Source: Eledone cirrhosa
Lineage: Eukaryota
DNA: 64,000 nucleotides
Reading direction: 5' to 3'
Assembly: GCA_964016885.1 (NCBI GenBank)
Contig: OZ024751.1
Location: 17,732,001 to 17,796,000, forward strand
Position numbers and translations under genes: made by a program. The notes below the pieces were generated by a model. The model made no database searches, had not been told where the DNA came from, and saw nothing but the letters and a program-made list of their open reading frames with translations. Of this stretch, positions 13,892 to 59,276 are shown piece by piece; position 1 is the stretch's first letter, and every line of letters begins with the position of its first letter.

Positions 13892-14245
13892 ATCCCGCCG
13901 AGGTTGACTTTGCCTTTCATCCGTACGGGTTCGATAAAATAAAGTACCAGTAATGTACTGGGTACTTGCTGGCCTTGTGCCTAAAGTAGAAACTATTATT
14001 TAATACACACACATCTACAAATAGGCGGTGGATTAGCAGTATTGGTAGAGTGTCGGATGCCATGCTTTGGCGCATAGAGTTACAGCCCTTGCCATTCTGA
14101 GTTCAAATCCCGCCGAGGTTAACTTTGCCTTTCATCCTTTCGGGGTCGATAAAATAAAGTACCAGTAATACATGGCTAATTGCTGGCCTTGTGCCTAACG
14201 TAGAAACAATTATTTAATACACACACGCACACACACAATACACAC

Positions 14246-16957: not shown

Positions 16958-17329
16958 GGTGAATTGGCAGTATCGGTAGAGTGTCGGACGCCATGCTTTC
17001 TAGCATAGTTACGTCCCTTTACGGTTTGAGTTCAAATCCCGCCGAGGTTAACTTTTCCTTTCATCCTTACGGGGTCGATAAAATAAAGTACCAGTAATGT
17101 ACTGGGTAATTGCTGGCCGTGTACCTAAAGTAGAAACAATTATTACTACCACCACTACCACTACTACCACCAACACCACTACCATTACCATCATTATTAG
17201 TGGATTGGCAGTATCGGTAGAGCGTCGGACGCCATGCTTTGCCTTTCATCCTTACGGGGTCGATAAAATAAAGTACCAGTAATGTACTGTGTAATTGCTG
17301 GCCTTGTGCCTAAAGTAGAAACAATTATT
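16958..17329 (+). mobile_element. Dimeric SINE (full monomer, (ACC/ACT)n linker, internally deleted monomer)
   Basis: Same architecture and same deletion junction CCATGCTTT|GCCTTTCAT as at 24495-24862. Confidence 0.8.
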
Positions 17330-17793: not shown

Positions 17794-17867
<74 letters not shown>

Positions 17868-17904
17868 GGGGTGTAACCTACATAGCATGTATTTCATTTT
17901 CTTA

Positions 17905-18050
17905 TAGCATTTTAAAAGGGTCCGTCGAGCTGCCGATTATTGAGTCGGGTAGGATCGATACAGATCGAACCTTGAGCTGATCAGTGGCGAAACGCGCGTC
18001 ACCTATCAATAAATGCAATGAAGGAGTAATCAATCGTCCTTGTTATCCTT
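17905..18050 (+). mobile_element. Penelope-like pLTR remnant with HHR 3' half
   Basis: GGC-GAAA-C-GCGC-G-TC (17986-18000), the palindromic-loop minimal stem III of PLE hammerheads, followed by AATAAA; CUGANGA box eroded; tail shared with 58401-58430. Confidence 0.6.
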
Positions 18051-24147: not shown

Positions 24148-25340
24148 CGGTGGTTTGGCAATATCGGTAGAGCGTCCGACGCCATACTTTGCAGCAGAGA
24201 GTTACGGTCCTTTGTGTTCTGAGTTTAAATACAGCCGAGGTTAACTTTGCCTTTAATCCTTACGGGGTCGATAAAATAAAGTACCAGTGACGCACTGGAG
24301 GTCGATTTAATCGAATTTCCCCTCCCCCCAAAATTGCTGGCATTTTACCTATATACGAAACAATTATTACTACCACCACCACCACTACCATTACCATCAT
24401 TATTACTACCACCATCACCACTACTACCACCAACACCACTACTATTACAACCAACACAACTACTACCATTAGCATCATTATTACTACCACCAAGGGCGGT
24501 GGATTGGCAGTATCGGTAGAGGGTCGGGCGCTATGCTTTCCAGCATAGTTTCGTCCCTTTACGGTCTGAGTTCAAATCCCGCCGAGGTTTACTTTGCCTT
24601 TCATCCTTACGGGGTCGATAAAATAAAGTACCAGTAATACACTGAGTAATTGCTGGCCTTGTGCCAAAAGTAGAAACAATTATTACTACCACTACTACCA
24701 CCAACACCACAACCATTACCATCATTATTAGTGGATTGGCAGTATCGGTAGAGCGTCGGACGCCATGCTTTGCCTTTCATCCTTATGGGGTCGTTAAAAT
24801 AAAGTACCAGTAATACACTGAATATAATTGCTGGCCTTGTGCCAAAAGTAGAAATAATTATTACTACCACTACCACCATCACCACTACTACCACCATCAA
24901 TACTACCACCATCACCACTACTACCACCATCACCATCGCCATCGCCACTACTACCACCAACACCACCAACACCACTACCACCACTACCACTACCACCATT
25001 ATCACCACTACTACCACCATCACCACTACTACCACCATCACCACTACCACCATCACCACTACCACCATCACCATCACCACTACTACCACCATCATTCAGA
25101 CCATTATCATCAATATTTTCACGAGTTAACCCTAGTTACTATTATAATATAATAGATTGGCAGTATCGGTAGAGGGTCGGACGCCATGTTTTGACGCATA
25201 GAGTTACGGCCCTTGCCATTCTGATTTCAAATCCCGCCGAGGTTAACTTTGCCTTTCCTCCTTACGGAGTCGATAAAATAAAGTACCAGTAATGCACTGG
25301 TGTAATTACTGGCCTTGTGCCAAAAGTATAAAGAACTATT
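24148..25340 (+). mobile_element. Array of four major-family SINE copies separated by (ACC/ACT)n tracts
   Basis: Copies start near 24148, 24495, 24731 and 25153. Confidence 0.85.
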
Positions 25341-38744: not shown

Positions 38745-39900
38745 CATTCACCACCAACACCAACACCACCAACTACAGTACCACCAACAACATCACCACT
38801 ACAAGCGTCACAAATACAAACACCAACACAACCACCACCACAACACCACAACAACCACCAGCACCACAACCAACACCACCACTACAAACAACATCACCAC
38901 TACAAGCGTCACAAATAAAGACACCAACACAACCACCACCACAACAATCACCAGCACCTCCACCACCACCACCACCACCAGCACCACCACCACCACCGCA
39001 ATAACGAATATCACAACTACCAACACCGCCATTGTACTAACTACCACTACGACCTCCACCACAACAACCACCAGCACCACAACCAACACCACCACTACAA
39101 GCAACATCACCACTACAAGCGTCACAAATAAAGACACCAACACAACCACCACCACAACAACCACCAGCACCACAACCAACACCACCACTACAAGCAACAT
39201 CACCACTACAAGCGTCACAAATAAAGACACCAACACAACCACCACCACAACAACCACCAGCACCACAACCAACACCACCACTACAAGCAACATCACCACT
39301 ACAAGCGTCACAAATAAAGACACCAACACAACCACCACCACAACAACCACCAGCACCACAACCAACACCACCACTACAAGCAACATCACCACTACAAGCG
39401 TCACAAATAAAGACACCAACACAACCACCACCACAACAACCACCAGCACCACAACCAACACCACCACTACAAGCAACATCACCACTACAAGCGTCACAAA
39501 TAAAGACACCAACACAACCACCACCACAACAACCACCAGCACCACAACCAACACCACCACTACAAACAACATCACCACTACAAGCGTCACAAATAAAGAC
39601 ACCACCACAACCACCACCACAACAATCACCAGCACCTCCACCACCACCACCACCACCAGCACCACCACCACCACCGCAATAACGAATATCACAACTACCA
39701 ACACCGCCATTGTACTAACTACCACTACGACCTCCACCACAACAATCATCACCACAACCAACACCACCACTACAAGCGTCACAAATACAAACACCAACAC
39801 AACCTCCACCACAACAATCACCAGCACCACACCACAAACAACACCACCACTACAAGCAACATCACCACCACAAGCGTCACCAATACAAACACCAACACAA
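38745..39900. repeat. 93-bp CA-rich tandem repeat with duplicated flanking block
   Basis: GTCACAAATAAAGACACC recurs at 39121, 39214, 39307, 39400 and 39493. Confidence 0.9.
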
Positions 39901-43879: not shown

Positions 43880-45000
43880 TAATATTGTTATTACTAGTGG
43901 TAGAACTAGTGGTAATGTTGTAGTTTTGGGGTTGTCGTAGTAATATTGTTAGTACTAGTGGTAGAACTAGAAGTAATGTTGTAGTTGTGGTTGTAGTTTT
44001 GGTGTAGTCGTAGTAAAATTGTTAGTACTAGTGGTAGAACTAGTAGTAATGTTGTAGTTGTGGTTGTAGTTTTGGTGTAGTCGTAGTAATATTGTTAGTA
44101 CTAGTGGTAGAACTAGTAGTAATGTTGTAGTAATATTGTTAGTACTAGTGGTAGAACTAGTGGTAATGTTGTAGTTGTGGTTGTAGTTTTGGTGTAGTCG
44201 TAGTAATACTGTTACTACTAGTGGTAGAACTAGTAGTAATGTTGTAGTTGGGGTTGTAGTTTTGGTGTAGTCGTAGTAATATTGTTGCTACTAGTGGTAG
44301 AACTAGTAGTAATGTTGTAGTAATATTGTTAGTACTAGTGGTAGAACTAGTGGTAATGTTGTAGTTGTGGTTGTAGTTTTGGTGTAGTCGTAGTAATACT
44401 GTTACTACTAGTGGTAGAACTAGTAGTAATGTTGTAGTTGGGGTTGTAGTTTTGGTGTAGTCGTAGTAATATTGTTACTACTAGTGGTAGAACTAGTAGT
44501 AATGTTGTAGTTGTGGTTGTAGTTTTGGTGTAGTCGTAGTAATATTGTTAGTACTAGTGGTAGAACTAGAAGTAATGTTGTAGTTGTGGTTGTAGTTTTG
44601 GTGTAGTCGTAGTAATATTGTTAGTACTAGTGGTAGAACCAGTGGTAATGTTGTAGTTGTGGTTGTAGTTTTGGTGTAGTCGTAGTAATATTGTTACTAC
44701 TAGTGGTAGAACTAGCAGTAATGCTGTAGTTGTGGTTGTAGTTTTGGTGTAGTTGTAGTAATATTGTTACTACTAGTGGTAGAACTAGTAGTAATGTTGT
44801 AGTTGTGGTTGTAGTTTTGGTGTAGTCGTAGTAATATTGTTACTACTAGTGGTAGAACTAGTAGTAATGTTGTAGTTGTGGTTGTAGTTTTGGGGTTGTC
44901 GTAGTAATATTGTTAGTACTAATGGTAGAACTAGTAGTAATGTTGTAGTTGTGGTTGTAGTTTTGGTGTAGTCGTAGTAATATTGTTAGTACTAATGGTA
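43880..45000. repeat. 73-bp minisatellite with 44-bp variants (190-bp higher-order unit)
   Basis: Unit starts 43941, 44014, 44087, 44131, 44204, 44277, 44321, 44394, 44467. Confidence 0.9.
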
Positions 45001-45574
45001 AAAGTGGTGAAAATGTTGTAGTCGTAGTTGTAGTGGTGATTTTTTATTACTAGTGGTAGAATTAGTGATAATGTTGGTGTGCTTTTTAAGTATTAGTGGT
45101 AGAACTTGTGATAATGTTGTGGTGGTAGTTGTAATCGTGGTTGTTAGTACTATTGGTAGAATTGGTGATAATGTTGTTATAGTTGAGGTGGTAGATTTAT
45201 TGTAGTCCTGGCAGTAATTTTTAGTGGTGGTATTGTTGTTACTGGTAGTAGAACCGTAGTTGGTTTAGTTGTAAAAGTTACAGTATTGGTACAAGTGTTA
45301 GAACTGCTAGTAATTTTGTAGTTGGTGCGGTGGCAGTTTGTAGAGTTGGTAGTGTTTTTACTGGTGTTAAAATGATAGTAGATTTGTTATAGGTATGAAG
45401 GTAGGTTGTACTGATGGTGTTGTTGTTGGTGGTGGTATTGCTAGGAGCTTCGTTGATTTTAGCATAGAAATAAATGTTTTCTCACACCAAGTGCACATCG
45501 TTGGTCAGGTTTCGATAACTTGCATAACAGTGCATGCGTTGACAACGTAGATTAAATAATTAATTAATTAAATA

Positions 45575-45975
45575 ATTGTTTCTACTTTTGGCACAAGGCC
45601 AGTAATTATCGCAGTACATTACTGGTACTTTATTTCATCGACCGCGTAAGGATGAAAGGCAAAGTTAACCTCGGCGGGATTTGAACTCATACCATAAAGG
45701 GCCGTAACTCTTTGCTGCTAAGCATGACGTCCGACCCTCTACCGATACTGCCAATCCACCATTAAATAATGATTTCTTATATAGGCCAGCAATTTTGGGG
45801 GAGGGGAAAGTCAATTAAATCGACCCCAGTGCATGACTGGTACTTTATTTCATCGACCCCGTAAGGATGAAAGGTAAAGTTTACCTCGGCGGGATTTGAA
45901 GTCAGACCATAAAGGGCCGTAACTCTTTGCTGCAAAGCATGGCGTCCGACCCTCTACCGATACTGCCAATCCGCC
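45575..45975 (-). mobile_element. Two tandem major-family SINE copies
   Basis: Reverse complement of the 11138-11324 type, twice. Confidence 0.9.
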
Positions 45976-58350: not shown

Positions 58351-58401
<51 letters not shown>

Positions 58402-58442
58402 GAAGGAGTAACCATTCGTCCTTGTATTATCATATTACACTC

Positions 58443-58514
58443 TCCTCGGTAGTATAGTGGTAAGTATCCCCGCCTGTCACGCGGGAGACCGGGGTTCGAT
58501 TCCCCGCCGAGGAG
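58443..58514 (+). tRNA. tRNA-Asp-GTC: tRNA-Asp (GTC)
   Basis: 72 nt; acceptor TCCTCGG/CCGAGGA plus G discriminator; anticodon stem CCCGC/GCGGG with GTC at 58476-58478; T arm CGGGG-TTCGATT-CCCCG; no encoded CCA. Confidence 0.95.
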
Positions 58515-58532
58515 GTGTAAATCATCAATAAG

Positions 58533-58698
58533 GGCGGGGGATTGGCAGTATCGGTAGAGGATCGGACACCATGCTTTCCAGCATAGTTACGTCCCTTTAC
58601 AGTCTGAGTTCAAATCCCGCCGAAGTTAACTTTGCCTTTTATCCTTACGGGGTCGATAAAATAAAGTACCAGTAATGCCAAAAGTAGAAGCAATTATT
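58533..58698 (+). mobile_element. Major-family SINE 18 nt downstream of tRNA-Asp
   Basis: Matches the 11138-11324 type with a small 3' deletion. Confidence 0.9.
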
Positions 58699-59020
58699 AT
58701 ATTACACTCTGTCTAGCTCTACACCTCGATATTGACGTGAACATCGAGTGCTCACCCGGGTGAACCTACAGTAACTCCGCGTAACACTGCAGTGATATAT
58801 ATATACTCCATCTCAACTCTACTTTTGAAAAGCAGAAGAACTGCGAAACCGTAAAGGAACCAAATAAATATATATATTTAAAAAAAAAAAAAAAAAAAAT
58901 AAGACTCCAGTTGCATTTTCGATTTCATCTCTTTTTCTTTATACTTTCACTCGTGTAGGACACCTCGGTTATTTTTCAATTTGTAAAAAAAACCTCACTT
59001 TCTAATATATATATATATAA

Positions 59021-59276
59021 ATGAAGTAATTCCGTCCGAAAAGTCCAGGAAAAAAGAATGCTCTATGTAGGTAACAGAGCTTAATAGTTATGTAATAAAC
59101 AACATAAGGCAATTAATCCATTTACCAGTGGTTTCTTAAAAGCCAAAAATTTTGCTTTCAATCCTCAGAATGAGGACCAGGATTTTTTCATTCTGAGGAT
59201 TGAAAGCAAAATTTTTTGCTTTTAAGAAACCACTGGTAAATGGAATAATTGCCTTATGTTGTTTATTACATAACTA
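59021..59276. mobile_element. Palindromic HHR-family B element (arms 59085-59276, minus-strand tail to 59021)
   Basis: ~89-bp near-perfect arms; (TA)n both sides. Confidence 0.85.
59181..59250 (+). ncRNA. Type I hammerhead ribozyme motif, intact (GUA triplet)
   Basis: Stem I GATTTTTTCATT/AATGGAATAATT (11 of 12 paired); CTGAGGA 59193-59199; 11-bp stem II TTGAAAGCAAA/TTTGCTTTTAA; GAAA-CC-ACT-GG-TA, predicted cleavage after 59238; mirror copy with intact core at 59111-59173 (minus). Confidence 0.85.

What the first reader, a model, noticed from the sequence alone, without database searches (positions are those of the whole stretch)
58432..58710. Retroposed tRNA-Asp-SINE chimera bounded by a single target-site duplication
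Seen: ATATTACACTC(T) lies immediately before tRNA nucleotide 1 (58432-58442) and again right after the SINE tail (58699-58710). Between them are an intact tRNA-Asp without CCA, an 18-nt trailer and a full SINE; the first T4 run is inside the SINE (58637-58640). The host sequence looks like an HHR/PLE-type tail (58401-58430 resembles 18019-18050; ATCGAGTGCT motif at ~58743). Inference: a Pol III read-through pre-tRNA, 5'-matured by RNase P but not 3'-trimmed, was retrotransposed via the SINE 3' end. This would be a route for dispersing intact tRNA genes or founding a new composite SINE.
Basis: partly seen in the sequence, partly recalled or inferred. Interest (0 to 1): 0.75.

Follow-up and report, generated by a model that had tools for sequence, protein, structure and literature searches.

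The report
Raw tRNA copy fused to SINE
An intact copy of a tRNA-Asp gene sits fused to a short jumping repeat (a SINE) inside one duplicated insertion site, one of over a dozen such fusions in this genome, likely made when a retrotransposon's copying enzyme jumped from the SINE RNA onto an unprocessed tRNA transcript rather than by read-through transcription.

Summary
The anatomy is real. tRNA-Asp(GTC), a trailer and a SINE lie inside one target-site duplication, which is 18 bp with one mismatch, not 11-12 bp. Paralogs of the host repeat give the empty site: 15 of 29 carry the motif once. The same position is a landing site for plain SINE copies (8 of 29; 59 exact junctions genome-wide). The read-through model is poorly supported. 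Searches blind to the trailer found 13 tRNA-SINE fusions (Asp, Glu, Gly; two SINE families). In 11 the SINE starts at a T3-T6 run that ends the tRNA's own trailer (plain SINEs: 0 of 23). Two carry the exact trailer of a tRNA array that has no SINE. Most full-length copies keep 5' leader bases, so RNase P cutting is not required. Best reading: the reverse transcriptase jumped from SINE RNA to a pre-tRNA 3' end, as described for U6-SINE chimeras. This copy is an exception: CAAT replaces the terminator Ts, unexplained. No daughter copy and no source gene were found, so it has founded no family. The scan noted the same phenomenon before at other loci of this genome (e1-9570173, unreviewed).

The parts
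58401..58425 (+). left remnant of the host repeat (arm of a palindromic, Penelope-like non-autonomous repeat; Penelope identity not tested)
   Evidence: 58401-58442 matches empty-site paralogs at 38-40 of 42 nt in 6 of 6 compared; 92% to 18018-18043
58426..58443 (+). left target-site duplication, 18 nt; last T shared with tRNA nt 1; C at 58431 differs from the right copy and from the usual host sequence
58443..58514 (+). tRNA-Asp(GTC), 72 nt, no CCA, A and B boxes intact; one change from the array gene (acceptor-stem G-U wobble becomes A-U)
58515..58525 (+). native pre-tRNA 3' trailer GTGTAAATCAT, shared with three other decayed tRNA-Asp copies; followed by TTT in L067
58526..58529 (+). CAAT at the junction in place of the terminator Ts; not a SINE leader; origin unresolved (likely added during the template jump)
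58530..58698 (+). tRNA-type SINE with complete 5' end, a 24-nt deletion near 58677 and an ATT tail that overlaps the right TSD
58637..58640 (+). T4 run made by a rare C>T change in the SINE; first possible Pol III stop after the tRNA
58693..58710 (+). right target-site duplication, 18 nt
58699..58799 (+). host repeat module (about 107 nt in paralogs, 6-nt deletion here); its 5' edge is a recurrent landing site of this SINE
   Evidence: 752 first-look candidates, 40 scored

Best explanation
This is a single insertion of an intact tRNA-Asp copy joined to a SINE inside one 18-bp target-site duplication, likely made when a retrotransposon's reverse transcriptase finished the SINE RNA and jumped onto the 3' end of an unprocessed pre-tRNA. 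Steps: (1, shown) the target was the ATT-rich edge of a host repeat where plain copies of this SINE also land. (2, inferred) A LINE endonuclease/RT nicked there and primed on the SINE's ATT tail. (3, shown) The SINE was copied to its 5' end. (4, inferred) RT switched to a pre-tRNA-Asp still carrying its trailer. In sister fusions the switch point is the oligo-U terminator end; here it is after the first U, with four extra bases, likely added during the jump onto a partly trimmed trailer. (5, shown) Copying ended at tRNA nt 1 or 2, either an RNase P-cut end or ordinary 5' truncation (undecided). The product is a one-off chimeric retrocopy, not a family.
For: Single event: 15 of 29 host paralogs join the same left arm to the module with one copy of the motif (one search prints 14; L050 was misfiled and I moved it by eye), none of the 29 loci has a tRNA B-box motif, and no SINE-only TSD was found. 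Switch at the pre-tRNA end: of 13 distinct fusions found by searches blind to the trailer, 11 have T3-T6 at the junction (one with 2 extra nt), one is cut after two Ts of an array-like Glu trailer, and one is this copy; plain SINEs 0 of 23 (Fisher p=1.3e-7). L103 and L102 and L082 carry the 10-nt trailer of the C3 array, which continues without any SINE. None of 16 fusion or retrocopy loci tested keeps array upstream or downstream sequence at the tRNA; only the genomic gene L005 does. Three tRNAs, two SINE families and an RTE-like tail as partners point to independent events. L061 has a clean TSD and a 5' inversion, L003 a doubled SINE head. Plain copies have ATT, the start of their TSD, 4-22 nt before the head in 20 of 23; this copy has none there, against a SINE inserted earlier behind a source gene. 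Precedent: U6-SINE chimeras ascribed to template switching (PMC4476161, passages).
Against: This copy lacks the T-run at the junction, the main signature in its sisters; CAAT is unexplained. No intact source gene with this trailer was found (2 and 6 exact matches), so what followed the trailer at the source is inferred from one decayed copy (L067). The automated TSD search gave a convincing TSD only for this copy among 16 tRNA-Asp loci; L061 and L065 have TSDs by eye, so single-event origin of most sisters is assumed. The control set is small and comes from loci fetched for other reasons. T3-T4 terminators can leak. DNA structure alone cannot tell a template switch from RNA ligation. The partner LINE was not identified here.
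Confidence: 0.7

Rival explanations
1. Read-through: a SINE sat behind a tRNA-Asp gene whose terminator was lost; Pol III made a tRNA-trailer-SINE RNA, RNase P cut the leader, and the LINE machinery copied it.
For: This copy has no T-run between tRNA and SINE; the 5' end is at or next to nt 1; the source gene is missing from the assembly, so its flank cannot be checked; arrays may be collapsed in the assembly.
Against: L067 shows the same trailer followed by TTT and the same SINE start. No ATT-started TSD remnant lies between tRNA and SINE. No tRNA-SINE locus with array upstream sequence was found. A source locus should give daughters with the same junction; only this copy has it. 11 of 13 fusions keep a terminator at the joint.
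Confidence: 0.13
2. RNA ligation: a trimmed pre-tRNA was ligated to a SINE RNA before reverse transcription, as proposed for sense small RNA/LINE-1 chimeras.
For: Sense orientation is expected from ligation as well as from template switching (PMC13174262, passages). A trimmed trailer could carry a nuclease-made end.
Against: The SINE keeps its native 5' start here and in most sisters. A primary Pol III 5' triphosphate and a 3'-OH oligo-U end are poor substrates for RtcB-type ligase (recalled). Extra junction bases and the doubled head in L003 fit RT jumps better.
Confidence: 0.09
3. Two successive insertions, or DNA-level capture: SINE and tRNA copy arrived separately at a hot spot, or tRNA cDNA was patched in during repair of the insertion.
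For: The site is a recurrent target with stacked SINE copies (L033, L036, L039, L058).
Against: Stacked insertions there are each separated by a copy of the TSD; here none lies between tRNA and SINE, and one TSD spans both.
Confidence: 0.06

Closest known systems
U6-SINE and U6-LINE chimeric retropseudogenes (U6-Mon-1 and U6-L2 in platypus, U6-AnolisSINE2; PMC4476161, passages read)
   Same: Pol III RNA ending in oligo-U, in sense, fused to the 5' end of a SINE within a TSD; independent one-off events; ascribed to template switching
   Different: The 5' partner is a whole pre-tRNA with its trailer (and often leader bases), carries its own internal promoter, and the joint maps to the terminator
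Human tRNA/LINE-1 chimeras (21 loci; PMC13174262, passages read)
   Same: tRNA sequence and retroposon inserted in one event with a TSD
   Different: Those are mostly tRNA halves in antisense, ascribed to twin priming; these are full-length, sense and unprocessed, and the partner is a SINE
Pre-tRNA and tailless tRNA retropseudogenes (Schmitz et al. 2004, seen only as cited in PMC4476161)
   Same: Unprocessed nuclear pre-tRNA used as an RT template
   Different: As cited, those are L1-made copies with no SINE partner mentioned; here priming was on the SINE tail
Composite SINEs that gained a new RNA-gene head (tRNA added to a 7SL SINE, 5S to a tRNA SINE, SINEU; PMC4494074 and PMC5786205, passages read)
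   Same: The structure that such families must start from
   Different: Those amplified as families from master copies; this copy has no daughter

Membership tests
Chimeric retrocopy (small RNA + retroposon, single TPRT event) | One TSD spans both parts | tested here: met
   18 nt, 1 mismatch; empty paralogous sites
Chimeric retrocopy (small RNA + retroposon, single TPRT event) | No TSD around the 3' part alone | tested here: met
Chimeric retrocopy (small RNA + retroposon, single TPRT event) | 5' part is an RNA copy without its gene's flanks | tested here: met
   no array upstream or downstream sequence; trailer limited to 11 nt
Chimeric retrocopy (small RNA + retroposon, single TPRT event) | The two parts come from separate transcripts | tested here: inconclusive
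   met for sisters with the array trailer; for this copy the source gene was not found
Chimeric retrocopy (small RNA + retroposon, single TPRT event) | Joined by RT template switch rather than ligation | not testable with these tools
   needs RNA or biochemical data
Composite (dimeric) SINE family | Many copies share one structure and junction | tested here: not met
   1 of 9 matches to the junction pattern is preceded by a tRNA, this copy itself; sisters have different trailers and partners
Composite (dimeric) SINE family | Transcribed by Pol III as one unit | not tested
   no RNA run held more than a small share of the words; no reads were laid
Functional tRNA-Asp gene | Cloverleaf, anticodon, A and B boxes intact | tested here: met
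   1 of 72 nt differs from the array gene
Functional tRNA-Asp gene | Terminator close behind the gene | tested here: not met
   first T4 is 123 nt downstream, inside the SINE
Functional tRNA-Asp gene | Purifying selection or expression | tested here: inconclusive
   tRNA 1 of 72 changed; SINE 6 of 148 off the majority, 3 of them rare: similar, so no sign of selection; expression untested
Hammerhead-bearing Penelope-like element (host) | Hammerhead ribozyme motif | tested here: not met
   none at Rfam gathering score in the window; best E=0.83 in three paralogs; minimal variants could be missed
Hammerhead-bearing Penelope-like element (host) | Head-to-head (palindromic) arms | tested here: met
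   inverted hits of the arm in many of 29 paralogs; only a remnant at this locus
Hammerhead-bearing Penelope-like element (host) | Link to an autonomous RT/GIY-YIG element | not tested
   not searched

The most novel reading that the evidence does not exclude
The SINE machinery of this genome routinely captures nascent pre-tRNAs from tandem arrays and scatters working tRNA genes. This copy, having lost the terminator that its sisters keep, is a live Pol III unit that reads tRNA-Asp and the SINE as one RNA: a source of mature tRNA-Asp and a composite SINE caught one step before founding a family.
Probability: 0.15. Interest if true: 0.65.

Novelty: new variant of a known kind. Interest (0 to 1): 0.4.

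Why it matters
Adding an RNA-gene head to a retroposon by template switch is the standard proposal for how SINE families arise and swap heads, but it is usually read from old amplified families. Here the first-step products are visible as a set: young, full-length, sense pre-tRNA copies joined at their terminators to two unrelated SINEs. They show that the RT meets unprocessed nuclear pre-tRNA, and suggest why most such fusions go nowhere: the captured terminator would stop Pol III before the SINE tail. This copy lacks that terminator, which makes it the natural test case. The mechanism itself is known from U6 chimeras.

Tried and rejected
TSD as an intrinsic host repeat: the module does repeat TTACACTC about 90 nt downstream in paralogs, but that is not the pair around the insert; empty sites hold the flanking motif once. 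ATATTAC as part of the SINE tail: rejected, tails end at ATTAT(T) and diverge. CAAT as a SINE 5' leader: of 9 matches, 4 have it inside their own TSD, 1 partly, 1 unclear, 2 are not SINE heads, 1 is this copy. Source gene: 2 matches and 6 (control 4); four are tRNA-Asp retrocopies, two are chance. Patterns with no match: exact Asp 3' end plus SINE head, and the GGTTCGAATCC class of tRNAs plus SINE head; exact patterns miss diverged copies. One search demanded Ts at the junction, so L067, L080, L081 and L082 were left out of the 11-of-13 count; L064 (1 of 6) is not a tRNA and was dropped. From the plain-SINE control I left out loci picked for likeness to this trailer; one of them, L095, has T4 before the head as part of its TSD. 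Selection on the tRNA: not shown. Sequencing runs: two runs of one sample hold about half of the 26 words, the rest are small shares; none was laid, so they count for nothing and polymorphism and expression stay open. Hammerhead in the host: not supported. No look-alike of the host module among earlier scan notes.

Full report
Setting. The window is AT-rich (33.7% GC), full of microsatellites (67 rows at score 150 or more) and of one SINE (about 30 copies or fragments). It lies on contig C11 of a 3.0-Gb genome. Earlier scan notes call the genome octopus-like; I did not test that.

Observation. The tRNA-Asp(GTC) is the only tRNA in the window and matches Rfam at 58443-58514 with 62.4 bits and intact stems. 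ATATTACACTC occurs twice in the window, at 58432 and 58699. Extended, the repeat is 18 nt with one mismatch, 58426-58443 and 58693-58710. The SINE begins at 58530, lacks 24 nt near its tail (a deletion seen in 3 of 14 other fetched copies, none with a tRNA), and differs from the majority of 73 copies at 6 of 148 positions, three of them rare; one of these makes the T4 at 58637-58640.

The duplication is a true TSD. A search with the right flank gave 752 candidates, 40 scored, 29 other loci fetched. Directly before the module, 15 have the same left arm as the window with a single copy of the motif (empty sites), 8 have the tail of this SINE, 3 another arm of the host, 3 unrelated DNA (the script printed 14 and 4, I moved L050 by eye). 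In L033, L036, L039 and L058 plain SINE copies sit at this position with the same duplicated bases. The exact SINE-tail/host junction occurs 59 times genome-wide, control 0; some of these may be copies of one another moved with the host. So the site is a habitual target of this SINE and the window's insert is one such insertion with a tRNA on its 5' end.

The fusion is not unique. The search with tRNA plus junction (40 of 501 candidates scored) gave L002, L003, L004 (Asp + same SINE), L006 (Asp + a second SINE), a genomic gene (L005) and a 1.34-kb tandem array of tRNA-Asp and tRNA-Glu on C3 with no SINE hit in the two array loci printed. A B-box plus SINE-head pattern gave 6 matches, 5 with tRNA: Asp (2), Glu (2), Gly (1). 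The same for the second SINE gave 6 of 6 tRNA-Asp. Without repeats these are 13 fusions found with no condition on the trailer. A pattern that asked for Ts at the joint added L067, L080, L081 and L082. L071 joins tRNA-Asp to a short tail that I recall as RTE-like.

Where the joints lie. In 11 of 13 a run of 3 to 6 Ts ends a trailer of about 10 nt right at the partner's first base (L099 has 2 extra nt); L061 is cut after two Ts of a trailer like the array's Glu trailer; the window is the exception. Plain full-headed SINEs show such a run in 0 of 23 (p=1.3e-7; first SINE alone 5 of 7 against 0 of 23, p=1.5e-4). The array's commonest trailer, GTACATATAC then T5 (45 of 68 counted in overlapping loci), is found unchanged before the second SINE in L082, L102 and L103, while the array itself goes on without a SINE. 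None of 16 retrocopy loci keeps array flanks at the tRNA. Of 10 tRNA-Asp copies that reach nt 1, 7 are preceded by CA to TATACA, as in the array leader CCTATACA; others begin at +4 to about +16, and L061 has an inverted 5' end. These are copies of primary transcripts, joined at their 3' ends to a separately made SINE copy.

This copy. Its trailer GTGTAAATCAT is shared by three decayed tRNA-Asp copies, which then go on differently: TTT plus the SINE start (L067), the RTE-like tail (L071), A-rich DNA (L074). So 11 nt are native and CAAT is particular to this joint. It is not a SINE leader, and with about 2% rare changes in the SINE it is unlikely to come from point mutation of TTT. If a SINE had inserted behind a source gene, its ATT-started TSD should lie between gene and SINE, as in 20 of 23 plain copies; it does not. 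I read CAAT as bases added during a jump onto a partly trimmed trailer; this is inference. No intact source gene was found. The 5' end at +1 or +2 fits RNase P cutting but also truncation.

Fate. No second copy has this junction. The tRNA differs from the array gene at 1 of 72 nt, in step with the SINE, so the insertion is fairly young and shows no sign of selection. Because the terminator is gone, Pol III would run into the SINE until the T4 at 58637 or, if that leaks, to 58823. No RNA data were laid.

Literature. I read passages, not whole texts, of PMC4476161 (U6 chimeras with L1, L2, Mon-1 and AnolisSINE2 by template switching; oligo-U ends named as a possible reason; pre-tRNA retropseudogenes cited), PMC13174262 (21 human tRNA/LINE-1 chimeras, mostly antisense halves), PMC4494074 and PMC5786205 (RNA-gene heads added to SINEs by template switch). 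Six searches, seen as listings, showed no description of full-length sense pre-tRNA-SINE fusions joined at the terminator, or of such fusions in cephalopods; subscription papers and supplements were not seen. The scan's own unreviewed notes report the same thing for tRNA-Phe, U6 and 5S at other places in this genome; I had reached my reading before opening them and checked the general claim only with my own loci.

Verdict. Real, and a clean example of a small-RNA/SINE chimeric retrocopy; a variant of a known kind. Template switch 0.70, read-through 0.13, ligation 0.09, separate insertions 0.06. Interest 0.4.

Noticed in passing
window 58693-58710; L033, L036, L038, L039, L045, L047, L053, L058; The ATT-rich edge of the host repeat is a strong landing site of this SINE: 8 of 29 paralogs, 59 exact junctions genome-wide, often with stacked copies separated by the TSD. 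It recalls SINEU inserting into one transposon family (PMC4494074).
   Followed up: partly
G000 C3 about 277.25-277.37 Mb (L007-L030): Tandem array of 1.34-kb units, each with tRNA-Asp and a divergently oriented tRNA-Glu-like gene; 35 of the 40 scored matches lie there. L005 is a diverged solitary unit.
   Followed up: partly
L006, L077, L081, L082, L083, L099, L102, L103: tRNA-Asp fused to a second, longer SINE that ends in (ATG)n; all 6 matches were Asp, none Glu or Gly.
   Followed up: partly
L061:1440-1740: tRNA-Glu-SINE fusion with a clean TSD of about 19 nt and a short 5' inversion of the tRNA.
   Followed up: partly
L003 (minus strand, about 1495-1532): Doubled SINE head between trailer and SINE, as from an aborted first jump.
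   Followed up: no
L071:1440-1560: Decayed tRNA-Asp with the same trailer as the window, joined to about 30 nt of a different retroposon tail ending in (TGA)n.
   Followed up: no
window 13892-14222, 16963-17329, 24495-24863, 45565-45975: Tandem pairs of the SINE, two of them (17202-17284, 24733-24814) with the same internal deletion and similar flanks, suggesting a local duplication.
   Followed up: no
window 17865-18050: Another arm of the host repeat with a CTGATCA...GCGAAAC motif that looks like a minimal hammerhead by eye; no Rfam hit at gathering score.
   Followed up: partly
window 59060-59270: Long near-perfect inverted repeat centred near 59170, seen in the sequence.
   Followed up: no
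window 39052-39900 and 43917-45034: Minisatellites with 93-nt and 73-nt units.
   Followed up: no
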